From assembly GCA_051439505.1 (NCBI GenBank), contig JBFRWI010000058.1, positions 1 to 43,379 on the forward strand: a stretch of DNA of 43,379 nt. Reading direction: 5' to 3'. The notes under the pieces are model-generated. The model made no database searches and had not been told where the DNA came from. It saw nothing but the letters and a program-made list of their open reading frames with translations. Source of the DNA: Hormoscilla sp. GTDB lineage: Bacteria > Cyanobacteriota > Cyanobacteriia > Cyanobacteriales > Desertifilaceae. Both the position numbers and the translations under genes were made by a program. Below, one piece after another: positions 9,304 through 30,936 of the stretch. Each line of letters starts with the position of its first letter. Position 1 is the stretch's first letter.

Positions 9304-10440
9304 TTGGTGCTGATCGTGGAGGCAATCTTTTCCGAAGTTTTTCAGCTCCTGTTGAGAGAACTCAAACAGTCTACCCGTGCCTCAGAGGGAAACTGTCAAG
9401 AGGTGGCCAAACGCATAGCTACAGAAGTAATGCGGATCTGCTCCCAAAGCAAGAGAATTCAAGCCTCCGGGGAAATAGCTTCATGGGCCCAGACCCTAGC
9501 CAGTCAGCGCCAGGAGCAATGTCTGCGCTACTATAATTTGGGGTCTCGCCAAGGAAGGGTGGAATTACACAGCTCTTTGAGTGCGATCGTCTATCGCTAC
9601 ATTACTCCATCAGGGCTGCCATCCAGCTATCAAGGGAGGCTGACTCTGATTGAAGATTTTTTACAGGGATTTTACATAGAGGCGCTGAATTCCTTCCGCC
9701 GGGAAGCGGAACTGCCGGTTACCTATCAACCGAAAACTTTGCTGGAGTTGGCAGAGTACATGGCTTTTGTGGAGCGCTATGGGAAGCGCCGTATTAGACT
9801 ATCGCGAGGTCGATCTCAACAACTGATTATTCTCCGGGCCCAAACTTTTTCCGGGCAGCAACCGCCAGAAACTTTTGTCGATCTGGAAAGGGCAGCAGAG
9901 GGAGCCCCTGGTGAGTCAGGGGGAAACTGGGGTGCCGCGCCGGGAAAGCAGCTGCGAGAGGTGATGGTGGCGGCGGCGGATACTAACCCAATAGAAGATC
10001 ACCTGCGCTTCAAGGTGGTGGAAGAATTGATGCAGTATTTACTCGACCATAATCAGCTTGATTGTGCTGACTACTTTGCTCTGCGCTTGCAGGATTTATC
10101 GACATCGGAAATTGAGGAGATCCTGGGTTTGACTCCCCGGGAACGGGACTATTTACAGCAGCGGTTTAAATACCATCTGAGTCGGTTTGCTACGGGACCG
10201 GGATGGGAATTGGTGCATCAGTGGTTGGAAGCGGACCTGGAACGGAACCTGGGCATGACTCCTGGGGAATGGCAGACTTTTATAGACAAGCTGACTCAAC
10301 AACAGCAGAGTTTGCTCAGCCTTAAGCAACAGAAACTACCCCATCAAGAGATCGCCTCCGATCTGGGCATAACTCCTAGTAAAGTCACCAAAGAGTGGTC
10401 TAAGCTACTACAAATAGCCTGGGAAATCCGTAATAGCTGA
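9304..10440 (+). CDS. hetZ: HetZ (heterocyst differentiation regulator homologue)
   Basis: Recognised segments SKRIQASG, GRVELHSSLSAIVYRYI, IEDFLQGFY, LELAEYMAF.ERYGKRRI, QQLIILRAQTF and LGLTPRERDYLQQRFKYH; C-terminal HTH-like region; synteny with sds and patU. Confidence 0.9.
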   Translation: MVLIVEAIFSEVFQLLLRELKQSTRASEGNCQEVAKRIATEVMRICSQSKRIQASGEIASWAQTLASQRQEQCLRYYNLGSRQGRVELHSSLSAIVYRYITPSGLPSSYQGRLTLIEDFLQGFYIEALNSFRREAELPVTYQPKTLLELAEYMAFVERYGKRRIRLSRGRSQQLIILRAQTFSGQQPPETFVDLERAAEGAPGESGGNWGAAPGKQLREVMVAAADTNPIEDHLRFKVVEELMQYLLDHNQLDCADYFALRLQDLSTSEIEEILGLTPRERDYLQQRFKYHLSRFATGPGWELVHQWLEADLERNLGMTPGEWQTFIDKLTQQQQSLLSLKQQKLPHQEIASDLGITPSKVTKEWSKLLQIAWEIRNS

Positions 10441-10458
10441 TATTATTATCCGGAATGA

Positions 10459-11550
10459 ATGCATCTAAACATGAATAGAGAGCCAGAAGCCAACACAGAT
10501 GAATTACTCGCTTGGCTGCTACAAGCTCCAAAAGCGAACGCATCTACACCTTCATCTGGGCACACTGCTAACCCAGAGAATGAGCAAACTTCCACCAGCT
10601 CAACTTCACCAGACGAAGATGTATGGTGGGGTGATTCTCTTGAGCTTGTAGCGGCAGAAATTGATATTTTTACACCAGACTCTAGCGGTTCCGATTCCAT
10701 ACAGCTGGAGTCTAAACCACTTGAAATTGGAGAGATACCTGCCGTGCAAAACCGTTTCCAGGCTGTTTTAAAGCGCCGAATTCAATCGGAAATCTCATCA
10801 AGGCTGCCACTATTTCCTTGGGAAACAGAGGTCTCAGAATACTATGATGATATTTATGACTCCACATTTTCTTCCGGGGTTCCCGGACTACCCTGGACTG
10901 CTCAGCTACTTTACCTGAACCTGCCAGTGCCAGTTAAAATCCCGGAATCTATCTTAACTCAGTTGCTAGAGCAATGTCAGCCGATCGCCCGCTCGGGATT
11001 GCGAGAAGGTGCTAAATTAGTTCAGGCGACAAAGGGTCTGTTTCCTAACTACCTTCAGACTCTGAACGAGTTAGCTGGAATGGTGCTCTTAGAGTATCGG
11101 TTTAATCAATGGGGACAGTTAGAGTCTAGCCATCGCGGTCCAGTAGACCAGCAGAATTTCCCTAGCAGTTATGAAATGGCAACGCCTACCCAACAAATGC
11201 AACTATCTTTACTGGCAGCAAGGCAGATCCTGAATGGTCTGACTCTGTTATTAAATTTGTCGGGACCGGTGGTACACCGAGAATGGCTGACTGGGGCTGG
11301 GAAGTTGATTGTTGAGGCTAATTACTATATTAGAGATGGTGTATCTTGGTTGGAAATTCAGGCCCAGATGCCTTGTGCTGGGAGGTTAAAGTTGACCGGA
11401 GACGCCCAAGAGGCGATCGCGCAACGAGAAAATCCCGGCAGTTTGACTGTAGAATTGTCAGATATTCAAGCCTTACAGACGTACCCCTTGGCGATTGAGT
11501 TTCCCACAGAGTCTACGGAGCCCCTGATTTTTGCTGTTTGTCCTACTTAG
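10459..11550 (+). CDS. patU: PatU (single ORF spanning PatU5- and PatU3-like parts)
   Basis: VQNRFQAVLKRRIQ..PLFPWETE and QQMQLSLLAARQIL motifs; immediately downstream of hetZ. Confidence 0.82.
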   Translation: MHLNMNREPEANTDELLAWLLQAPKANASTPSSGHTANPENEQTSTSSTSPDEDVWWGDSLELVAAEIDIFTPDSSGSDSIQLESKPLEIGEIPAVQNRFQAVLKRRIQSEISSRLPLFPWETEVSEYYDDIYDSTFSSGVPGLPWTAQLLYLNLPVPVKIPESILTQLLEQCQPIARSGLREGAKLVQATKGLFPNYLQTLNELAGMVLLEYRFNQWGQLESSHRGPVDQQNFPSSYEMATPTQQMQLSLLAARQILNGLTLLLNLSGPVVHREWLTGAGKLIVEANYYIRDGVSWLEIQAQMPCAGRLKLTGDAQEAIAQRENPGSLTVELSDIQALQTYPLAIEFPTESTEPLIFAVCPT

Positions 11551-22009: not shown

Positions 22010-22086
22010 TCCTGAGGTGAAAGGGCGATCGCATTCTATAAAATAGTCAACAGGATGATATAGAAAGATTTAGCCTGTCAGAATTT

Positions 22087-22130
22087 TGTTATCTAGGCGA
22101 TCGCATCTGGGAGCGATCGCCTAGATAACA
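22087..22130. terminator. 18-bp perfect hairpin between convergent genes, with HIP1 in both arms
   Basis: tgttatctaggcgatcgc-atctggga-gcgatcgcctagataaca. The terminator role is inferred from position only. Confidence 0.5.
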
Positions 22131-22255
22131 TCCAAAAATATCTTAACAAACAACGACTTCGGAGCCGCAGCATCGAGTATCTCCTGTGTTTATTGTTAAA
22201 TGTAAGTTTAATTCTGATTGACCTTGACCCAGTATTTGCGAAAATCGGATTAAAT

Positions 22256-25200
22256 TCAAGCGATACTCTGTTCCCAGCAAACCTTTAATTTTTCTGCCAA
22301 CACTTGTATGTGAGGCTGACTCATCATGGTGTGGTGGTCACCAGGTACAATATGGATATCCACCGGACCATCCGCATATTCACTCCAACCCCAACTGGGT
22401 TCTAGTTTCAGGTCTTGGCGAAAACTCTCCATTTGTGCCACCGATCGACTCGTTAAAGGAATGTCACGGGCTTTAAATAGGCTGATGGGAGTCGCCGGAA
22501 TCTCCCGTGGAACATAATTCGTTTGGCAATTCGCTTTGAAAACTTTTACCAAAGCATCAAGCTGTTTGAGGGAAATGTGCCAACTATTTTGCGTCAAGAT
22601 TTCATGGAGATAGTTGAGTTGTGCTTGGGTTTCCAGTTGTTGTAATTCTGCGTAGGACAATTCCAGTTCGATATTTAACAAACGTCCGACAATATGAGCG
22701 ACCTCAGTTATCCATTGCGCTTCATTCCAATCTATGCCGATCGCGCCTTTAAAAGGCACGGTGCTGTCAAAAATAACCAGTCGTGCAACCTTCTGTCCCT
22801 GAAGTTGTAACTGTTTGGCCATTTCCAGGGCAACTCCAGCACCAAAGGAATGACCGCCAAGCAAGTAGGGGCCTTGAGGCTGTACCGTTTGGATTTCTTG
22901 GATATAGCGAGCGGCCATGTCTTCAACCCGCGTTTCTGGAGCGGTTTCGCCATCAAGTCCGATCGCTTGCAGGCCATAAAAAGGTCGGTCTTCACCCAGA
23001 TGACGGGCTAACTGATGGAAATAGAGTACATTGCCACCAGCACCGGGTAGGCAGAAGAAAGGCTCTTTGGAGCCGTTGGGTTGAATGGCAACGAGGGGCG
23101 ACCATTGGTTAACAGGGTTAATCGTATTTGAGGATGGCTCAATAAGTTTGGCTAATTCGGCGATCGTCCCACCTTGAAACAAGGCCGATAAGGGCAAGTT
23201 TTGACCGAATTGCTGTTCTATCTGCGCTAACAGGCTGACCGCTAATAGGGAATGTCCGCCCAAGTCAAAGAAATTATCATGGATGCCAACTCGCTCAATG
23301 CCCAATACGGAAGTCCAGATATCGGCTAACATTTCCTCATCTGCTGTCCGAGGTGCCACAAAGGTTTCTTCTGATAACTGATAATCATTGGCGGGTCTCT
23401 GAGATAAAGCCCGACGATCTATCTTGCCATTGGGTGTCAGGGGCAAGGCGGAAAGTAGCACGAAAGCGGACGGAATCATGTAGTCAGGAAGAGACTCTTT
23501 GAGGTAGTTACGCAGACGGTTATTCAACTGGCGTTGCAACATTTTCAAGATGCCGGTTGTTTCCAGCAAATGCTGTACGCTTTGGTTGACAATCGCCTGT
23601 TGTTCCCCTGTGAGATTAAAGGCAATCCCCACTTCCGATTCCTGCACCCATCTGACTTCCCCCTTTAACCAACGCATTTCTGAATCAATGGGTAACTGTA
23701 AGCCTAGATTGAGTTCCTGACCTTCAGTCAAGGTGAGGATTTGACCCCCGTCTACACCCAGACCGCCACTGCTAATATCTACCGTGCGGACTGTTAACGG
23801 GTTGCCGTCCATTTGGATAAGACAGTCGGTTTGATAGGGGATGCGATCGGGGATAAGATCGGATACCAGGTAAGCCACGAGGCGCTTTTCTCCGGGTTGC
23901 TCTTCTTGGACGATGACAACAGCTTCTTGGATATCGGGGTGTTGAGCTAACACGGCTTCGATTTCGCCAAGTTCGATCCGAAAACCGCGAATCTTGACTT
24001 GGTTATCGATGCGTCCCAAGTATTCAATATTGCCGTCGGGTAGATAGCGGGCTAAGTCGCCGGTTTTGTAGAGGCGAGAGTTGGGGTCGTCGCTAAACGG
24101 ATTGGAGATGAATTTTTCGGCTGTTAATTCCGGGCGATTCAGGTAGCCACGAGCTAAACCAGTACCGCCGATATGAAGTTCGCCGGGGACACCTACTGGT
24201 ACGGGTTGCAAATGAGAGTCTAAAATGTAGGTTTTTGTGTTGGCGACGGGGCGACCAATAGGAACAATAGACTCCTTGGCAGAACACTGCCAAAACGTGG
24301 CATCTATACAAGCTTCTGTTGGGCCATAAAGATTTATTAATTCAACGTTGAATGTATTAAGAATTATTTCTATCGATGTGAAAGGTAATGGTTCGCCCCC
24401 ACAAAAAATGCGTTTCAGCGATTGAAGGGTTTCAATTTCCTGAATTGACAAAAGAACTTGCAACAGAGATGGCACCATTTGCACTATGGTTACTTGATGT
24501 CGAGCAATAATCTCGATCAGAGAGCGGCTGTCTTTCTGCCAGTCAGGTGGAGCGATCGCCAGTTGTGCCCCAACAACAAGCGGCGCATAAAATTCCCACA
24601 CGGAGGCATCAAAACTTATGGGGGTTTTTTGTAAGACTTTATCTTGCTCGCTCAAGGGAAAAGTATCCTGCATCCATTGGGTATGATTGCAAATTGCTTG
24701 GTGGGAAATCATTACTCCCTTCGGCTTGCCGGTTGAACCTGACGTATAAATGACATAAGCCAAATTCCCAGGCATCACCCCACTGCTGAGATTTTCCGAA
24801 CTCAACCGGGACAGCATTTCTGCCTCAATATCTAAACAAACCACCTGGGCTTTAGTTTCTGGCAGTTTCTCTTTTTGGCTCGATTGAGTCAACAACACTG
24901 GCACTTGGGCATCCTCTAGCATAAACACCAAACGCTCTGCCGGATAAGTCGGGTCGAGGGGCAAGTATGCGCCCCCGGCTTTGAGAATGCCAAAAATCCC
25001 GACTACCATTTCAATTGAACGCTCGACACAAATTCCCACCAATACTTCCGGTTTGACCCCCAAGGTTTGCAGATAGCGAGCCAGTTGATTGGCTTTGGCG
25101 TTTAATTCTCCATAAGTCAGTTGTTGCTCTTCAAACACTACCGCCACTGCATCCGGTGTTTTTTCGACTTGCTCCTCAAATAGCTGGCTGATGGTGTACT

Positions 25201-28200
25201 TATCTTGGGGATAATCCACTTGGGTATCATTCCATTCCACTAATAATTGATGGCGTTCCCGTGACCTTAGCAGGGGCAATTCCGAAAGGCGTTGCTGCGG
25301 ATTGGCCACAATACCTTCTAGCAATGTCTGCAAATGACCGGATAAACGTTCTATAGTCTCCCGTTTAAATAAATCCGTGTTGTATTCCCAGCGACCCGCG
25401 AGCCCGGAAGCGGTTTCTGTCAATTCCAAGGTCAGATCGAATTTGGATATCTCGCTTTCCAATTCTAAAAGAGTTAAACTCAGCCCCGCCAATTCCAAAT
25501 CCGGCAGCGGTGCATTTTGCAGTATGAACATCACTTGAAACAGAGGGGAATGACTCAAATGACGTTTTGGCTGTAATGCTTCTACCAACCGTTCAAACGG
25601 AATATCTTGATGGGCATAAGCCTCTAATGCCACCCGTCGCGCCTGCTGTAAAATTTCCTCAAAAGGTGGGTTTTCTGCCAAGTCTAGGCGCAAGACCAGG
25701 GTATTCACAAAAAAGCCGATGAGAGACTCGATTTCACTACGATTGCGATTGGCAATGGGGGAGCCAACTGCAATATCCTGTTGCCCGCTGTAGCGAGACA
25801 ATAAAACGGCAAAAGCCGACCAGAGAATCATAAACAGCGTCGTGCCAGTTTCTTGACTGAGCTGTTTCAGTCGAGCCGTTAATTCATCGGAGAGGGAAAA
25901 GGATATGCTGGCTCCTGAAAAACTCTGGATTGGAGGGCGCGGATAATCCGTTGGCAATTCCAGCAATGCTGGCAGATCGGCCAATTGCTGTTGCCAATAC
26001 TTGAGTTGTTCCTCCAGCACTTCTCCCGCCAGCCATTGCCGCTGCCAGTTGGCAAAATCCACATATTGAATCGGTAGCGGTGGCAGGGACGCAGGTTGTC
26101 CTTGCAAAGCCGCTTCATAAAGGACGCGCCATTCCCGAACAAAAACACCGAACGACCAACCATCGGCAATGATATGGTGCAGCACGATTAGTACGATGTG
26201 GGAGGTCGCATCTAATTGGAGTAGGGCGGCGCGGAATAACGGCCCGGTTGCTAAGTCAAAGGGACGCATCGGCTCTTCTTTGAGCAACCGCCGCACTTCG
26301 GGTTCTCGTTCTGCCTGGGATAAGGTCTGTAAATCAAAAATCTCGAACTGGAAAGCTCGATGGGAAATCTGCACCACAGGAGCGCCATTGACAGTGGGAA
26401 ATGTAGAGCGCAAAGTTTCGTGACGATCGACCAAGGCTTGAAAACTTTGTTCTAGTGCTTGTTGGTTCAGTTGTCCGTCAAGCCGCACCGCTGCCGCTAG
26501 ATTGTAGGTGGCACTTTTTTCTTCTTTTTCTTCGAGTTTGTCGAAAAACCACAAACGCTGTTGGGCAAAAGACAGTTGCAAAGGTTTGTCCCGCTCTACT
26601 GGCGTTATTGGCGCTAAAGAAGACTCGCCAGAAGACTCGCTCAACTGGGTGCCTAATTGGGCGATCGTCGGCAATTCAAATAATAGGTGCAGGGGCAATC
26701 TGACCGCAAAGGCATCGCGAATCCGCGACATCACTTGAGTCCCGATGAGGGAATGACCGCCCAGTTTAAAGAAATTGTCATAGATGCCGACTCGTTCGAT
26801 ATTTAACACATCCGCCCAAATCCCCGCTAACAATTCTTCCGCTGGGGTGCGCGGGGCGACATAAGTTGCGGTAGATGCTTGGGACTGCCGGTTTTGAGAC
26901 TTAATCCGCTCTAAAATCTGTTCTGCATCAGATAATTCCGTGGCAATTCGCATCAACAGCATTGATTCCCCACTCTTGGCTTTTGCCTCTTCGCTTTTGC
27001 CTAAAAGTGAAGCTCCCCCACTCTTGGCTTTTGCCTCTTCGCTTTTGCCTAAAAGCCGACTATTATAGGTCAATTCCGATGCCAACTCAACGGACAAGCT
27101 GTATTGCCAACCTCCCTCCGTGGGTTGTTTGAATTGACTGCCCATACTCTCCAAGAAATCTAGCACCGCTTGATTTCTTTCAGTGGGCAGATAAGGAATC
27201 TCAATCGAGTTCAGTTGGCGTTCTGCGGCAATTTTCCCTAACCGAGCCAGCATTTGATGTTCGACACCTCGACCGAGGGCGCGGCAACTCAATAAAAAGG
27301 TATCGACGCGGATCGATCCGATGGCAGACCCCCCCTTAGCAAGGGGGGGCTTGGGGGGGTCGATCGCATTAGTCACTAACTCAAATAAAATAACGCCAAC
27401 CAAGCCATAATCCCCAAAACGGTCTCTCACTTCCACTACCAGAGATTCAAAAGCACCGGATTGGCAAAGTTGTTGAATTTCCGCTTCGGTTCTTCTAATA
27501 GTCGTGAAGTTAAACTGGTTAGTTCGTTTCGTCAATTGGGAAACTCGACTTAGCTGGGAGGTTTCCATCGGTGAAATCGCGACCTCCAGTTCCAGTCCTG
27601 CCAGAAAATCAGCTAACGTTGGGGCCTGCTCCTGGAAGCGATCGCGCTCTTGCTTTTGTTGATAATACTGAGTGCGCTGCCGGTCTTCTGCGGTGACATC
27701 TCCTAAATTATCAAAAGCCCAAACATGATTCAGAAACTGCTCCCACTGGTTTAAATCCGCAGGCAATTGGATGGTGGTGACTTCCGGACAGTTCGCTCTA
27801 ACTTCAGCGCATTCAATCGGATTATCGTCAATAAAGATAAAACTCGACAATCCTAAATTAAGTTCTGCCGCTAAAGACTTGAGATTTTCTGATTTTGGTT
27901 GCCAGTTAATGCGCCAAGCCACCAAATGTTCGCGCTTCAGAGACATATCGGAACGCCCCTCGAGTACAGCCAAAACATCCGCTTCATTATTTTTACTGCA
28001 CAAACATAATAATTTCCCCGCCTGCTGCTGCTGCTCACATAAAGTTTGTAGCGCTTGGTGAGGAGAATCTATTTTCAAGTTTTGCACTCCGTCTTCAGCG
28101 CAAACCCCTTGCCACAAGGTATTATCGCAATCCAGTACGATCGCTTTGTACGGATGGCGCTTGATGGCATGAATTTTGCGGGCAATCTGAGTACCCAGCG

Positions 28201-28504
28201 CCGCAAACAAAGCCGGTGTATAGGGAATCTGACCCAGTTCTTCTGCCCCTGGATCGTAAATTCTAGAAACGGGGTAATTTTTGAGTAGTTCCGAGGATGC
28301 GATCGGATGTAGAGACGCGAAATTTCGCGTCTCTACCATACCTGCCAATTGAGAGGCTAACAAATCTTCTGCCCAAGGTAGATTGCTAGGGCAAATACAG
28401 ACAATATATATCCGATCTTTAAGAACGGATGTTAAAGCGCGAAATTTCTGACATTTTCCTCGATTTCCGCCTGCATTATTGCCTTGTCTGTAGATTTTGT
28501 CCAA
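22256..28504 (-). CDS. NRPS, downstream part: FkbH (HAD-IIIC + GNAT-like)-T-C-A(PilZ-interrupted)-T-TE
   Basis: LDCDNTLW, FIDDNP, RTNQFN, DRFGDYG, LLSCRALGR; GGHSL x2; HHIIADGWS; YTSGSTGKPKG, YGPTE, YKTGDL, PNGKIDR; TE motifs GHSFG and GDHHTM. The N-terminus is probably a frameshift continuation of 28432-30486. Confidence 0.93.
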   Translation of the reverse strand: MDKIYRQGNNAGGNRGKCQKFRALTSVLKDRIYIVCICPSNLPWAEDLLASQLAGMVETRNFASLHPIASSELLKNYPVSRIYDPGAEELGQIPYTPALFAALGTQIARKIHAIKRHPYKAIVLDCDNTLWQGVCAEDGVQNLKIDSPHQALQTLCEQQQQAGKLLCLCSKNNEADVLAVLEGRSDMSLKREHLVAWRINWQPKSENLKSLAAELNLGLSSFIFIDDNPIECAEVRANCPEVTTIQLPADLNQWEQFLNHVWAFDNLGDVTAEDRQRTQYYQQKQERDRFQEQAPTLADFLAGLELEVAISPMETSQLSRVSQLTKRTNQFNFTTIRRTEAEIQQLCQSGAFESLVVEVRDRFGDYGLVGVILFELVTNAIDPPKPPLAKGGSAIGSIRVDTFLLSCRALGRGVEHQMLARLGKIAAERQLNSIEIPYLPTERNQAVLDFLESMGSQFKQPTEGGWQYSLSVELASELTYNSRLLGKSEEAKAKSGGASLLGKSEEAKAKSGESMLLMRIATELSDAEQILERIKSQNRQSQASTATYVAPRTPAEELLAGIWADVLNIERVGIYDNFFKLGGHSLIGTQVMSRIRDAFAVRLPLHLLFELPTIAQLGTQLSESSGESSLAPITPVERDKPLQLSFAQQRLWFFDKLEEKEEKSATYNLAAAVRLDGQLNQQALEQSFQALVDRHETLRSTFPTVNGAPVVQISHRAFQFEIFDLQTLSQAEREPEVRRLLKEEPMRPFDLATGPLFRAALLQLDATSHIVLIVLHHIIADGWSFGVFVREWRVLYEAALQGQPASLPPLPIQYVDFANWQRQWLAGEVLEEQLKYWQQQLADLPALLELPTDYPRPPIQSFSGASISFSLSDELTARLKQLSQETGTTLFMILWSAFAVLLSRYSGQQDIAVGSPIANRNRSEIESLIGFFVNTLVLRLDLAENPPFEEILQQARRVALEAYAHQDIPFERLVEALQPKRHLSHSPLFQVMFILQNAPLPDLELAGLSLTLLELESEISKFDLTLELTETASGLAGRWEYNTDLFKRETIERLSGHLQTLLEGIVANPQQRLSELPLLRSRERHQLLVEWNDTQVDYPQDKYTISQLFEEQVEKTPDAVAVVFEEQQLTYGELNAKANQLARYLQTLGVKPEVLVGICVERSIEMVVGIFGILKAGGAYLPLDPTYPAERLVFMLEDAQVPVLLTQSSQKEKLPETKAQVVCLDIEAEMLSRLSSENLSSGVMPGNLAYVIYTSGSTGKPKGVMISHQAICNHTQWMQDTFPLSEQDKVLQKTPISFDASVWEFYAPLVVGAQLAIAPPDWQKDSRSLIEIIARHQVTIVQMVPSLLQVLLSIQEIETLQSLKRIFCGGEPLPFTSIEIILNTFNVELINLYGPTEACIDATFWQCSAKESIVPIGRPVANTKTYILDSHLQPVPVGVPGELHIGGTGLARGYLNRPELTAEKFISNPFSDDPNSRLYKTGDLARYLPDGNIEYLGRIDNQVKIRGFRIELGEIEAVLAQHPDIQEAVVIVQEEQPGEKRLVAYLVSDLIPDRIPYQTDCLIQMDGNPLTVRTVDISSGGLGVDGGQILTLTEGQELNLGLQLPIDSEMRWLKGEVRWVQESEVGIAFNLTGEQQAIVNQSVQHLLETTGILKMLQRQLNNRLRNYLKESLPDYMIPSAFVLLSALPLTPNGKIDRRALSQRPANDYQLSEETFVAPRTADEEMLADIWTSVLGIERVGIHDNFFDLGGHSLLAVSLLAQIEQQFGQNLPLSALFQGGTIAELAKLIEPSSNTINPVNQWSPLVAIQPNGSKEPFFCLPGAGGNVLYFHQLARHLGEDRPFYGLQAIGLDGETAPETRVEDMAARYIQEIQTVQPQGPYLLGGHSFGAGVALEMAKQLQLQGQKVARLVIFDSTVPFKGAIGIDWNEAQWITEVAHIVGRLLNIELELSYAELQQLETQAQLNYLHEILTQNSWHISLKQLDALVKVFKANCQTNYVPREIPATPISLFKARDIPLTSRSVAQMESFRQDLKLEPSWGWSEYADGPVDIHIVPGDHHTMMSQPHIQVLAEKLKVCWEQSIA
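26968..27055. repeat. In-frame 40-nt direct duplication (48-nt period) in the NRPS linker
   Basis: ccccactcttggcttttgcctcttcgcttttgcctaaaag twice, encoding LLGKSEEAKAKSG x2. Confidence 0.9.
28309..28336. repeat. Perfect 28-bp GTAG-ended REP-like palindrome inside the NRPS
   Basis: gtagagacgcgaaatttcgcgtctctac, read in-frame as VETRNFASL. Confidence 0.88.
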
Positions 28505-30486
28505 TCCTGCAAGCGCACCAATATCACATTAATGCCCGTTTCATTTTTGGAAAGCAGACTGGAAGAATCGAGCAATTGCTGAAAAACCTGGTTGTAAGGC
28601 GCAAACTCAACCTCATAAGGCAGGTCGAGTTCTTGCATCCAAAAGTCAAGGGATTCTTGCAAGGGTTCCGCCGTGAAAGTAGCGCTAACAGCAATTCTTT
28701 CAACAAGTCTTTGTTCGTAATGCCTTGTTTTTTTAGGTTCGGACGCGACCCGGGATTTCTTTTCTTCCAGCAGTTCGACCAAACCCAGATGAGTATTGAG
28801 AAACGCGACCAATCGATGGTTAAAAAGCGGGGCAGGTTTGGCTTCGGAAACTACCACGGCTCCTTTGGCAATGAATTTTTCCATCATCAGCCAAAAATCT
28901 GTCACCTCGTAGCAAACATGGTACAAGCTGATGCCTCGATTTAATAAAGACTTTACTTGATTCCCGGCAACCAGTTCTATGTCAATGTTGTTGTTAGTCT
29001 TAATTAAGCAAACCTTGGCATCTTGGTATTTATCAAAAACAATTTCGCCGATATCGGTGACATCATAAATCTCTTTCACATATTCGATGCCAGCTTCAAT
29101 ATTCTCACAAGCGTAACCGTTATGATGGAATTTGAGTTGTTGCTTGAATTGGGCATCGGGGATAATTTGTAATTCCCGAACTGGCACCGAATGCGATCGC
29201 AGTATTTCTCCTAACAAAAATTGCAAGCCAAACTGCAAATGTTCGATGTCATCAGCCTCAAAAAAGCTCTGATTATAATCGAAATAGATATTGACATCAT
29301 CGTGATGATGAAATTCTTCAATGGTAATAAAAAGCCCATGTCCTTGCGGGTAAAAACCGTTAGCTAAATACACGGAGTGACTCGGATTGCCGTTAAAACT
29401 CACATCGTAGTCAAGCTTGGCATAAGATAGGGTGACATCAAACAATGGTTGTTGGTTGCCCTTCCCTCCAACTTCCCGGCTAATTTCGCTTAAAGGAAGA
29501 TGTTGATGTCGATACTCCTTGTGCAGTTCCTTGCTAATCTTTTCTAGCAATTCGGCAACGCTCAAGTCAGTGCCAAAACGAAACCAAGCGGGACTGACAG
29601 ACATGAACATACCAACGGTCTTCTTAAAAGCGACTGTATTTCGATTGAGTAGGGGTAAGCCAATGGTAAAATCCTCCCGATGACCTGTCCGTAAAAAATA
29701 ACAATAGAGTGCGCCTAAGATGACATGGAAAGGGGAAACTTTATGGTTAACAGCAAACTTGGCTATTTGGTTATAAAAAGACCGTTTGACGCGCAGGGTC
29801 GAGCGTTGACTGGGAATGGTTTGACCCTGAAATTGTTCGGCATAGCGGCGTAGTAAAAGCGGCTCGGGTAGTTCGCTGTATTTGTCGTGCCAGTATTGTC
29901 GATCTTTGGCAATTTTTGCCGAGTTGGGGTAGGTGCGATCTTTGTGAATAAAATCTTTGTAACTATAATATTGTGGTTCAGACTTTTGTTCGCTAACCAA
30001 TGCGTTATAGGCACTGGCAATCCGTTGGACAATCATAGAAAACCCCCATCCATCAACGATAAGATGATGGGCTTTGTGAAAATAGTAATAACAATTATCC
30101 GCTGCTTTGCATAATGCGATTTTAAACAATAACTCCTCATATAGTTGGAAAGGCTTGACAAACTCTTGTTCCATCCATTCGATCGCCGCTTCGCGAGCAT
30201 TTTCCTGGGTGGAAAAATCCTGGAATTCCAGAGTTATGCGAACATTTTCGGCAAAAGTTTGTGTGGGCAATCCTTCCCCCGCATGAATAATGATGCGGAG
30301 TGCATCGTTTTCGGCAATAACTCGATTGATGGCTTTTTCAAAAAGGGCAGGAGCGATTTCCCCCTCTATCCGCGCATAACCCCCGATATTGTACAGGGGC
30401 ACATCCGGGTGCAGGATTTGGTCGAACCACAAGTCTAATTGAGGAGAAGATAAGGGGTAATGATTGTTGGTTTGACTTAAATTCAT
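28432..30486 (-). CDS. NRPS, upstream part: condensation domain-VOC (glyoxalase/epimerase-like) domain-start of FkbH N-terminal domain
   Basis: LSSPQ, YNIGG, HHLIVDGW; FHHNGYAC, IELV, LYHVCYEV, LVELLE; IAVSATFTAEPL and FAPYNQVFQQL. Confidence 0.88.
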   Translation of the reverse strand: MNLSQTNNHYPLSSPQLDLWFDQILHPDVPLYNIGGYARIEGEIAPALFEKAINRVIAENDALRIIIHAGEGLPTQTFAENVRITLEFQDFSTQENAREAAIEWMEQEFVKPFQLYEELLFKIALCKAADNCYYYFHKAHHLIVDGWGFSMIVQRIASAYNALVSEQKSEPQYYSYKDFIHKDRTYPNSAKIAKDRQYWHDKYSELPEPLLLRRYAEQFQGQTIPSQRSTLRVKRSFYNQIAKFAVNHKVSPFHVILGALYCYFLRTGHREDFTIGLPLLNRNTVAFKKTVGMFMSVSPAWFRFGTDLSVAELLEKISKELHKEYRHQHLPLSEISREVGGKGNQQPLFDVTLSYAKLDYDVSFNGNPSHSVYLANGFYPQGHGLFITIEEFHHHDDVNIYFDYNQSFFEADDIEHLQFGLQFLLGEILRSHSVPVRELQIIPDAQFKQQLKFHHNGYACENIEAGIEYVKEIYDVTDIGEIVFDKYQDAKVCLIKTNNNIDIELVAGNQVKSLLNRGISLYHVCYEVTDFWLMMEKFIAKGAVVVSEAKPAPLFNHRLVAFLNTHLGLVELLEEKKSRVASEPKKTRHYEQRLVERIAVSATFTAEPLQESLDFWMQELDLPYEVEFAPYNQVFQQLLDSSSLLSKNETGINVILVRLQDWTKSTDKAIMQAEIEENVRNFAL

Positions 30487-30936
30487 TTTTCAATATGCTA
30501 TTTTCACAGTTTCTGATTACCGCTTTACTTTTCTTGAGAATTTGGTGGCGGGGAACCGTTAGGGTGCCTTCGGTGTAGAGACACCTTCTCCCCTGCCGTT
30601 TTCTAGTTCCAATATCGACTATCTTTCTTCATCTTGCCAATATTTCGCTCGATAAAAATCTGTCTTAGGGTATATTTTTGAATGGTTACTGGGTCATGGT
30701 ACCGGTCAGGAGGCATGGTAAGCAAGTGGACAAAAATATTTACACATTCGGCAGCGATTTCGGTGGGCGGTGCCCACCCCGGAACTCCTACCCGATCGAC
30801 CCGATCGCACCTCCGAATTGTACTGTGCCGATGGGCGCTCTCCTAATGCTAAAGTGATAATAGACATTTCTACCCTGACAATCGCCATCAAACTTCGCCC
30901 CTACTGACATTTGAGAAACAATAACTAACAACTAAA

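What the first reader, a model, noticed from the sequence alone, without database searches (positions are those of the whole stretch)
22256..30486. Orphan NRPS with C-VOC-FkbH-T-C-A(PilZ)-T-TE architecture
Seen: joining the two ORFs gives about 2740 aa with a starter C domain (HHLIVDG), a VOC domain where an A domain would normally follow, an FkbH unit with intact DxD and SCR motifs, then T, C, A, T and TE. No tailoring, transport or fatty-acyl ligase genes flank it. Known: FkbH domains load glycerate from 1,3-bisphosphoglycerate, as in OzmB, Planktothrix OciA and the C-FkbH-T start of vioprolide VioA. Inference: a self-contained line making a small glyceryl-amino acid, possibly O-acylated by the first C domain using an acyl donor supplied in trans. 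I do not recognise this domain combination from a characterised cluster.
Basis: partly seen in the sequence, partly recalled or inferred. Interest (0 to 1): 0.85.

Follow-up and report, generated by a model that had tools for sequence, protein, structure and literature searches.

The report
Frameshifted glyceryl-lipid synthetase with epimerase-like domain
This cyanobacterium carries a frameshifted, likely disabled copy of a rare stand-alone assembly-line enzyme otherwise found mainly in marine sulfur bacteria, whose intact form is predicted to make a small fat-linked glycerate-glutamine compound and contains a metal-enzyme domain that likely flips the handedness of the glycerate.

Summary
The domain string is real: starter-type C, VOC, FkbH, T, C, A (with a PilZ-like insert), T, TE. 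The two ORFs are one gene cut by a frameshift. The break is in the DNA of three runs of one study (no differences), so it is not an assembly slip, and it falls inside the FkbH N-terminal domain. The architecture is not unique. Intact 2,594-2,705 aa copies exist; the named ones are in Ca. Thiosymbion and a Pseudomonadota MAG, also without a fatty-acyl ligase, and a partial copy is in Ca. Parabeggiatoa. The VOC domain was found in none of 400 other genomes of the phylum, so transfer from sulfur Gammaproteobacteria is likely. The A code is the Gln code (some relatives differ). The main result: this VOC subfamily keeps a His/Glu/His/Glu metal site, folds like methylmalonyl-CoA epimerase and Clostridium glyoxalase I, and lies beside FkbH in 46 of 47 loci of 5 kb or more, including 30 of 31 where it is a separate gene, often in glycan clusters. 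It likely acts on the glyceryl thioester, most likely as a D-to-L epimerase (untested). The scan noted such an FkbH-ACP-VOC cassette before on other DNA. Verdict: new variant of FkbH-type NRPS, probably inactive here.

The parts
28432..30486 (-). ORF1, 684 aa: starter-type C domain, VOC domain, first part of the FkbH N-terminal domain
29140..30465 (-). C1, starter (lipo-initiation)-type condensation domain; HHLIVDG at 30049-30069
28759..29142 (-). VOC (Glyoxalase_4) domain with conserved His/Glu/His/Glu set; fold of Clostridium glyoxalase I and methylmalonyl-CoA epimerase
28435..28719 (-). FkbH N-terminal alpha/beta domain, first part (in ORF1)
28432..28449 (-). Frameshift site: about 4 nt shorter than intact homologs, followed by the ORF1 stop; it coincides with an in-frame X XXY YYZ heptamer and a weak hairpin
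22256..28504 (-). ORF2, 2082 aa: rest of the FkbH N domain, FkbH core, T, C, A(PilZ-like), T, TE
28151..28432 (-). FkbH N-terminal domain, second part (in ORF2)
28309..28336 (.). Perfect 28-bp palindrome inserted in frame; a relative in run X5 lacks 18 nt here
27128..28147 (-). FkbH core (HAD phosphatase plus C-terminal domain that gives GNAT-fold matches); DxD at 28118-28132, SCR at 27281-27295
27311..27370 (.). In-frame C-rich/G-rich hairpin insert with HIP1-like flanks inside the FkbH domain
26968..27055 (.). Two identical 40-bp copies 48 bp apart (in-frame duplication) in the FkbH-T linker
26639..26863 (-). T1 carrier domain (approximate bounds); serine motif at 26741-26761
25241..26578 (-). 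C2, with an LCL-type start motif; HHIIADG at 26159-26179
23414..25180 (-). A domain, code DAWQFGLIDK (Gln), interrupted in its C-terminal subdomain; A10 lysine motif at 23414-23431
23591..23845 (-). PilZ-like insert; keeps DxSxxG but lacks the first Arg of RxxxR
23141..23329 (-). T2 carrier domain
22307..23062 (-). Thioesterase domain; GHSFG at 22841-22855

Best explanation
This is a frameshifted, likely inactive and likely horizontally acquired copy of a small family of stand-alone NRPS genes whose intact form is predicted to make an O-acyl-glyceryl-glutamine, with the VOC domain likely epimerising the carrier-bound glycerate. Steps for the intact enzyme: (1) FkbH loads glycerate from 1,3-bisphosphoglycerate onto T1 and removes the phosphate (family knowledge; domain and motifs shown; about 0.9). 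(2) The VOC metal site removes and returns the C2 proton of the glyceryl thioester, turning D into L (inferred; acts on the glyceryl unit about 0.8, as an epimerase about 0.5). (3) The starter C esterifies a glycerate hydroxyl with an acyl chain taken in trans from acyl-ACP or acyl-CoA (inferred by analogy to vioprolide; about 0.65). (4) C2 joins the unit to Gln activated by the A domain (code shown; about 0.85). (5) TE releases the free acid. In this genome the frameshift stops translation inside the FkbH N-terminal domain, so little or no full-length protein is likely made (about 0.75).
For: Domains. Break real: three contigs from runs X1, X2 and X4 (depth 183, 146.5, 3.6) bridge it with 0 differences and 0 gaps. 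It lies in helix 212-231 of the N domain in the model of an intact homolog. Intact copies: P0002, P0003, P0004, P0007. L017 (Ca. Thiosymbion) and L013 have no acyl ligase for this gene among the flanking ORFs scanned; L017 has a PPTase upstream. Decay is common: 7 of 12 other family loci show frameshifts or stops, 3 are whole and intact, 2 are cut by contig ends (some are near duplicates). The closest relative, P0001, shifts frame in C2. VOC: top folds are 3hdp/2qh0 (Z 18.9 and 18.5, rmsd 1.5, 124-125 aligned), then methylmalonyl-CoA epimerases (Z 14-15, rmsd 2.5-3.0). H/E/H/E are kept in 83, 82, 85 and 83 of 86 rows. FkbH is in 46 of 47 VOC loci of 5 kb or more, often with an ACP, an acyltransferase and sugar genes. 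Vioprolide carries L-glyceric acid acylated at the 2-OH (PMC7383572 passages), although FkbH takes the D substrate (PMC8949500 and PMC10099666 passages). Transfer: VOC in 0 of 400 other genomes of the phylum. The FkbH domain sits in an 18-row clade (SH-aLRT 99) whose four named members are all Pseudomonadota. HIP1 occurs 3 times in 8.2 kb against 1.0 per kb genome-wide.
Against: No activity or product was measured. The best solved match of the VOC domain is labelled glyoxalase I, not epimerase. LCL-type C domains also follow FkbH-T in 10 VOC-less proteins, so an LCL partner does not require the VOC. The passages read on vioprolide list no VOC domain although its glycerate is L, so inversion may need no VOC. 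One annotated plasmid VOC sits next to an ACP with no FkbH listed in 9.5 kb (that gene table is incomplete). The window protein has not lost more invariant residues than intact homologs (5.2% against 2.6-7.5%), so it may still work or broke only recently. The three runs that bridge the break come from one study and may include the source sample. The tree is a quick one, unrooted, with no clade test.
Confidence: 0.45

Rival explanations
1. The VOC domain does glyoxalase-I-like or elimination chemistry rather than epimerisation. It would turn a methylglyoxal adduct on the carrier thiol into a lactyl thioester, or eliminate phosphate or water from the (phospho)glyceryl unit to give pyruvoyl, so the product would carry another C3 unit, or the domain would repair blocked carriers.
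For: The closest solved relatives by sequence (E 3e-16) and fold are titled glyoxalase I / lactoylglutathione lyase. The two-Glu ligand set matches theirs. That the glyoxalase I product is a 2-hydroxyacyl thioester is textbook knowledge.
Against: The near-constant link to FkbH (46 of 47) points to the glyceryl unit as substrate. No reductase for a pyruvoyl-to-lactyl step lies in the gene or beside it.
Confidence: 0.25
2. The split gene is still active in this organism, either by a -1 ribosomal slip at the break or by ORF2 being translated on its own as FkbH-T-C-A-T-TE, with ORF1 acting in trans or not at all (giving plain glyceryl-Gln).
For: The shift needed is -1, and an in-frame X XXY YYZ heptamer sits at the break with a -7.3 kcal/mol hairpin behind it. 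Catalytic motifs are intact and there is no excess decay. The TIGR01686 core lies wholly in ORF2.
Against: Such a heptamer is expected in the 24-codon overlap about 8% of the time, and the hairpin is weak (z -1.8). Aligned homologs are in frame here, so the signal is not conserved. The five in-frame starts before the HAD motif show no properly spaced Shine-Dalgarno by eye. The break cuts a folded domain.
Confidence: 0.2
3. The first C domain is not an acyl-ester former. It is a vestigial or docking domain, or it accepts a chain from a separate NRPS/PKS elsewhere in the genome, so the product is unacylated or larger.
For: No acyl ligase or ACP is fused or adjacent. Other family members put FAAL-type, A-T or no domains in front of VOC-FkbH, so the front end is modular. 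FAAL-type ligases with carriers exist on other contigs of the genome.
Against: HHxxxDG is kept in C1 of the 9 family homologs that hold it. Its best PDB matches are the 7c1k/7c1h/7c1p set (E 5e-43 to 2e-41; next 8e-27), which I recall as the rhizomide starter C domain. Hand-picked close relatives are N-terminal C domains of C-A-T proteins.
Confidence: 0.25

Closest known systems
Vioprolide VioA and corramycin ComK start (FAAL-ACP-C-FkbH-T)
   Same: A C domain directly before an FkbH-T unit; predicted O-acylation of glycerate; downstream amide-forming C (PMC8949500, PMC10099666, PMC7383572 passages).
   Different: Here there is no FAAL-ACP, C1 is of starter type, a VOC domain lies between C and FkbH, and only one amino acid follows before TE. 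No VOC is listed for VioA or ComK in the passages read.
Aeruginosin/suomilide/dysinosin AerB-SuoB glycerate loading modules (MT-FkbH-T-ST)
   Same: Cyanobacterial FkbH-T loading of glycerate onto an NRPS (PMC8609519, PMC10143770 passages).
   Different: Those methylate and sulfate the glycerate, and dysinosins are listed with D-glyceric acid. No C or VOC is described in front, and they sit in large clusters.
Starter (lipo-initiation) C domains, PDB 7c1h/7c1k/7c1p (recalled as rhizomide RzmA-Cs)
   Same: Best PDB match of C1; N-terminal position; acyl donor supplied in trans.
   Different: They N-acylate an amino acid on a C-A-T module (recalled). Here the only acceptor on T1 would be a glycerate hydroxyl.
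Methylmalonyl-CoA epimerase and Clostridium acetobutylicum glyoxalase I (3hdp, 2qh0)
   Same: Same fold and a four-residue metal-site pattern; both move a proton at the carbon next to a thioester carbonyl (textbook).
   Different: 16-23% identity to the epimerases and about 32% to the glyoxalase. This subfamily is tied to FkbH and carrier proteins; its substrate is untested.
FkbH-ACP-VOC-acyltransferase cassettes in glycan loci
   Same: Same VOC subfamily beside FkbH and an ACP.
   Different: There the parts are separate genes, predicted to acylate sugars; here they are fused into an NRPS module.

Membership tests
FkbH-type glyceryl-loading NRPS module | FkbH domain over the curated cut-off, standing in place of an A domain before a T domain | tested here: met
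   TIGR01686 294 bits against 147; T1 follows
FkbH-type glyceryl-loading NRPS module | HAD motifs (DxD, S/T, K, DD) and the SCR cysteine motif (motif roles recalled) | tested here: met
FkbH-type glyceryl-loading NRPS module | Glyceryl actually loaded on T | not testable with these tools
   needs intact-protein MS
Vioprolide/corramycin-type start (FAAL-ACP-C-FkbH-T) | FAAL and ACP in front of the C domain | tested here: not met
   ORF1 begins with C; no ligase in the window or, for this gene, among the scanned flanking ORFs of L013 and L017
Vioprolide/corramycin-type start (FAAL-ACP-C-FkbH-T) | C domain with intact HHxxxDG before FkbH-T | tested here: met
Starter (lipo-initiation) C domain | N-terminal position and closest likeness to starter C domains | tested here: met
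   the identity of the 7c1x entries as a starter C is recalled; no NaPDoS run
Starter (lipo-initiation) C domain | Acyl transfer from acyl-CoA or acyl-ACP | not testable with these tools
   needs an assay
Methylmalonyl-CoA epimerase-like VOC enzymes | VOC fold and four metal-site residues within one chain | tested here: met
   Z 14-15 with rmsd 2.5-3.0 over 123-129 residues; H/E/H/E conserved; their role as ligands is inferred from the match to the Ni-bound 3hdp
Methylmalonyl-CoA epimerase-like VOC enzymes | Match to a curated epimerase family model | tested here: inconclusive
   No such NCBIfam model was listed for ORF1 at E 0.01; Atlas neighbours carry automatic names of both epimerase and glyoxalase
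Methylmalonyl-CoA epimerase-like VOC enzymes | Epimerase activity on a thioester | not testable with these tools
   needs an H/D exchange and chiral assay
Gln-activating A domain | Specificity code DAWQFGLIDK | tested here: met
   Code read by motif anchoring, with positions recalled from the standard scheme; named as the glutamine code in PMC8313283 (passage)
c-di-GMP-binding PilZ domain | RxxxR plus D/NxSxxG motifs (recalled) | tested here: not met
   DxSxxG is present, but the first Arg is missing in the window and in all 10 related inserts
Programmed -1 ribosomal frameshift gene | Slippery heptamer plus stimulator, conserved among relatives | tested here: not met
   Heptamer and weak hairpin present, but aligned homologs are in frame

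The most novel reading that the evidence does not exclude
The FkbH-linked VOC subfamily is an unrecognised class of carrier-bound glycerate epimerase, an 'E domain for a 2-hydroxy acid'. It would supply L-glyceryl both to surface-glycan acyltransferases in many bacteria and, fused in line, to a minimal NRPS of marine sulfur bacteria and symbionts that makes an undescribed O-acyl-L-glyceryl-Gln/Asn lipid from an acyl donor taken in trans.
Probability: 0.35. Interest if true: 0.75.

Novelty: new variant of a known kind. Interest (0 to 1): 0.5.

Why it matters
FkbH enzymes take a D-configured glycolytic substrate, yet L-glycerate appears in products such as vioprolide. A conserved FkbH-linked metalloenzyme gives a direct and cheap test of one way this inversion could happen, and would add a new domain type to NRPS annotation and engineering. 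The intact two-module genes from uncultured sulfur bacteria and symbionts are compact targets for finding a new lipo-amino acid. The copy in this window is probably a dying import and matters mostly as a pointer to that family.

Tried and rejected
Assembly-error explanation of the break: rejected. Uniqueness of the architecture: rejected. Terminal inverted repeats as a mobile-element signature: the 14-mer at 22221 and 30687 does not extend and has 5 other near copies in the genome; rejected. The test 'an LCL C domain needs L-glyceryl, so VOC goes with LCL' failed: 18 VOC-plus and 10 VOC-minus proteins have the LCL motif and no DCL motif was detected; of the 189 rows, 54 had no T found by the pattern and 107 ended or had another domain. 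Decay test: no excess substitutions. Expression: no RNA holder listed. Literature: 0 papers for FkbH+glyoxalase+NRPS, FkbH+methylmalonyl-CoA epimerase (22), L-glycerate+FkbH (49) and FkbH+glyoxalase (50). Searches gave only listings, which I did not open; no title was on point. The primary vioprolide esterification paper is not held. Source names of the protein clusters could not be looked up, so the hosts of P0001, P0004-P0006 and P0008-P0021 stay unknown. The search of 1.84 billion representatives with ORF1 was swamped by C domains. The plasmid collection gave one weak VOC hit. Earlier scan notes by sequence and by a second word set: none. The careful tree did not finish; only the quick tree is used. 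No complex prediction was run. antiSMASH, MIBiG and NaPDoS were not available.
Full report
Observation. The region holds two minus-strand ORFs, 28432-30486 (684 aa) and 22256-28504 (2082 aa). Pfam finds C and Glyoxalase_4 in ORF1, and C, A, PilZ, two T and TE in ORF2. NCBIfam finds FkbH at ORF2 120-459, twice over its cut-off. All catalytic motifs looked for are present. None of the 29 other window ORFs scanned is an acyl ligase, and the immediate neighbours are dapB, cbiC, a hydrolase, a kinase and hypotheticals. The host is a cyanobacterium: photosynthetic reaction-centre genes, 6476 HIP1 sites. An earlier scan note calls it Hormoscilla-type (not checked).

The break. Against intact homologs the window is about 4 nt short in the helix after the LVRxxDW motif, and ORF1 stops a few codons later. 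Contigs from runs X1, X2 and X4 bridge the site with no difference or gap (depth 183, 146.5 and 3.6), and no indel was listed in the coding region over 10 kb in four runs. These runs are one study and may include the source sample, so this rules out a slip of this assembly but is not independent sampling. In an AlphaFold model of the VOC-FkbH unit of intact L013 (mean pLDDT 90) the matching helix (212-231) is in the middle of the FkbH N-terminal domain, and the model's best fold match is BF1531. A -1 slip would bridge the break, and a heptamer with a weak hairpin is there, but this is expected by chance about 8% of the time and is not conserved. The protein shows no excess loss of invariant residues (29 of 553, 5.2%; eight homologs 2.6-7.5%), so the break is recent or tolerated.

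The family. A search with the VOC region among proteins of 1198-3420 aa gave 316 hits, 120 of them listed. About 20 carry the VOC domain. Four are whole C-VOC-FkbH-T-C-A-T-TE proteins of 2594-2705 aa, and one of these also has the PilZ insert. Named loci are Ca. Thiosymbion (L017), Ca. Parabeggiatoa (L014, partial) and a Pseudomonadota MAG (L013); more distant VOC-FkbH fusions lie in an acidobacterial and another gammaproteobacterial MAG. L017 has a PPTase upstream and no ligase; L013 has a receptor gene and NRPS fragments. Of 12 other family loci, 3 are whole and intact, 2 are open but cut by contig ends, and 7 show frameshifts or stops (L096-L098 look like near duplicates, and metagenome errors cannot be excluded). 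The nearest relative, P0001 (85% over ORF1, host unknown), is in frame at our break but shifts frame in C2.

Origin. The VOC model matched 1 of 401 genomes of the phylum, the window's own. Forty relatives gave only partial, generic NRPS or FkbH matches among those listed; 308 matches were not shown. In a quick 95-row FkbH tree the window sits in an 18-row clade (SH-aLRT 99) whose four named members are two Parabeggiatoa, Thiosymbion and the Pseudomonadota MAG; cyanobacterial FkbH domains fall elsewhere. The A domain is 81% identical to L013 but at most 57% to this genome's other A domains. HIP1 is scarce in the gene (3 in 8.2 kb against 1.0 per kb). The site after dapB holds different cargo in the three genus relatives fetched. 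Import from sulfur Gammaproteobacteria is the likely reading; the direction was not tested with a root.

The VOC domain. Its model (pLDDT 93) matches Clostridium glyoxalase I first (Z 18.9, rmsd 1.5, 125 aligned) and then, after one hypothetical protein, a block of methylmalonyl-CoA epimerases (Z 14.2-15.4). Four residues, His-Glu-His-Glu, are kept in 83, 82, 85 and 83 of 86 aligned rows from 85 loci. The metagenome scan used VOC patterns only (80 of 107 hits kept). Even so, 46 of 47 loci of 5 kb or more carry FkbH. By my reading of that table, 16 are fusions and 31 have a separate VOC gene, 30 of them with FkbH; some loci are duplicates. In 12 stand-alone loci (62 of 95 ORFs scanned) an ACP was found in 7, a MBOAT, hexapeptide, AAC(3)-like or GNAT acyltransferase in 9, and sugar-pathway genes in most. 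So the domain is a dedicated partner of glyceryl-carrier chemistry rather than a resistance or detox passenger. Both known relatives move a proton next to a thioester carbonyl (textbook), which fits D-to-L epimerisation of glyceryl-S-T. Vioprolide shows that L-glycerate, acylated at C2, can come from a line whose FkbH takes the D substrate (passages of PMC7383572, PMC10099666, PMC8949500), while dysinosins are listed with D (PMC10143770 passages). Against this: those passages list no VOC in vioprolide, the best solved match is labelled glyoxalase, VOC-less FkbH modules are also followed by LCL C domains, and one plasmid VOC has an ACP but no listed FkbH.

The rest of the line. C1 matches 7c1k/7c1h/7c1p far better than other C domains (recalled as a lipopeptide starter C). 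Twelve hand-picked close relatives are N-terminal C domains, 11 of them in proteins with A domains. The acyl donor must come in trans; the genome has FAAL-type ligases with carriers and a PPTase on other contigs, with no shown link. The A code is DAWQFGLIDK in the window and in P0003, P0008, P0012 and P0017, and DATKIGEVGK in P0002, P0004 and P0007. The first is given as the glutamine code in PMC8313283 (passage); the second I recall as Asn-like. The PilZ-like insert recurs in 10 of 270 proteins checked, including another NRPS of this genome, and always lacks the first Arg of the c-di-GMP motif; it is a lineage trait of these A domains, not specific to this line.

What is known. FkbH-T modules are described for vioprolide, corramycin, cystomanamide and aeruginosin-type lines (passages). 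Four searches of the open library found no paper joining FkbH with a glyoxalase, epimerase or L-glycerate term. Subscription papers and MIBiG were not searchable and no supplements were opened, so 'not described' is limited to that. I had reached the same link before reading it; it is not independent support.

Verdict. It works like the vioprolide C-FkbH-T start but is not a member of that type, because it has no FAAL-ACP. It is a new variant: a starter C plus an in-line VOC domain in a two-module orphan gene. The family and the VOC hypothesis are worth testing; this copy is probably inactive. Interest 0.5.

Noticed in passing
window 28301-28326 and 28423-28448: The frameshift site is 81% like the arm and flank of the 28-bp palindrome 122 bp away, which hints that the repeat may have templated the break; chance is not excluded.
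   Followed up: partly
window 28309-28336, 27311-27370, 26968-27055: Three in-frame inserts or duplications inside the gene (palindrome, hairpin repeat, 48-bp-spaced duplication). A relative in run X5 lacks 18 nt at the palindrome.
   Followed up: partly
G000:C108 (L177:1538-3862) and P0007, P0012, P0020, P0129, P0132, P0155, P0192, P0217, P0239: PilZ-like inserts in the A subdomain recur across this NRPS lineage, all without the first Arg of RxxxR.
   Followed up: partly
window 22010-30936; L174, L175, L176: The site after dapB is a variable cargo site: TPR, LRR and glycosyltransferase genes, a group II intron, or Uma2 and ABC genes in genus relatives.
   Followed up: partly
P0010, P0013: FAAL-type-T-C-VOC-FkbH-T-reductase proteins: a self-contained line that could release an acyl-glyceraldehyde or acyl-glycerol.
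   Followed up: no
L016/L104:9962-18433 and L100: VOC-FkbH-T used as a loading module of an NRPS-PKS hybrid, near methyltransferase and Vut_1 genes.
   Followed up: no
L103, L110, L113, L114, L128, L131, L132, L133, L145, L172: Stand-alone VOC-FkbH(-ACP) cassettes, mostly with varied acyltransferases and often inside glycan or surface-polymer loci.
   Followed up: partly
window 22087-22130: Perfect 18-bp inverted repeat with two HIP1 sites just downstream of the NRPS, next to a terminator-like hairpin at 22153-22168.
   Followed up: no
window 9304-11550: A 378-aa ORF with only a sigma-70 region 4 hit, followed by a 363-aa ORF with no Pfam hit, ahead of a transglutaminase-like gene.
   Followed up: no
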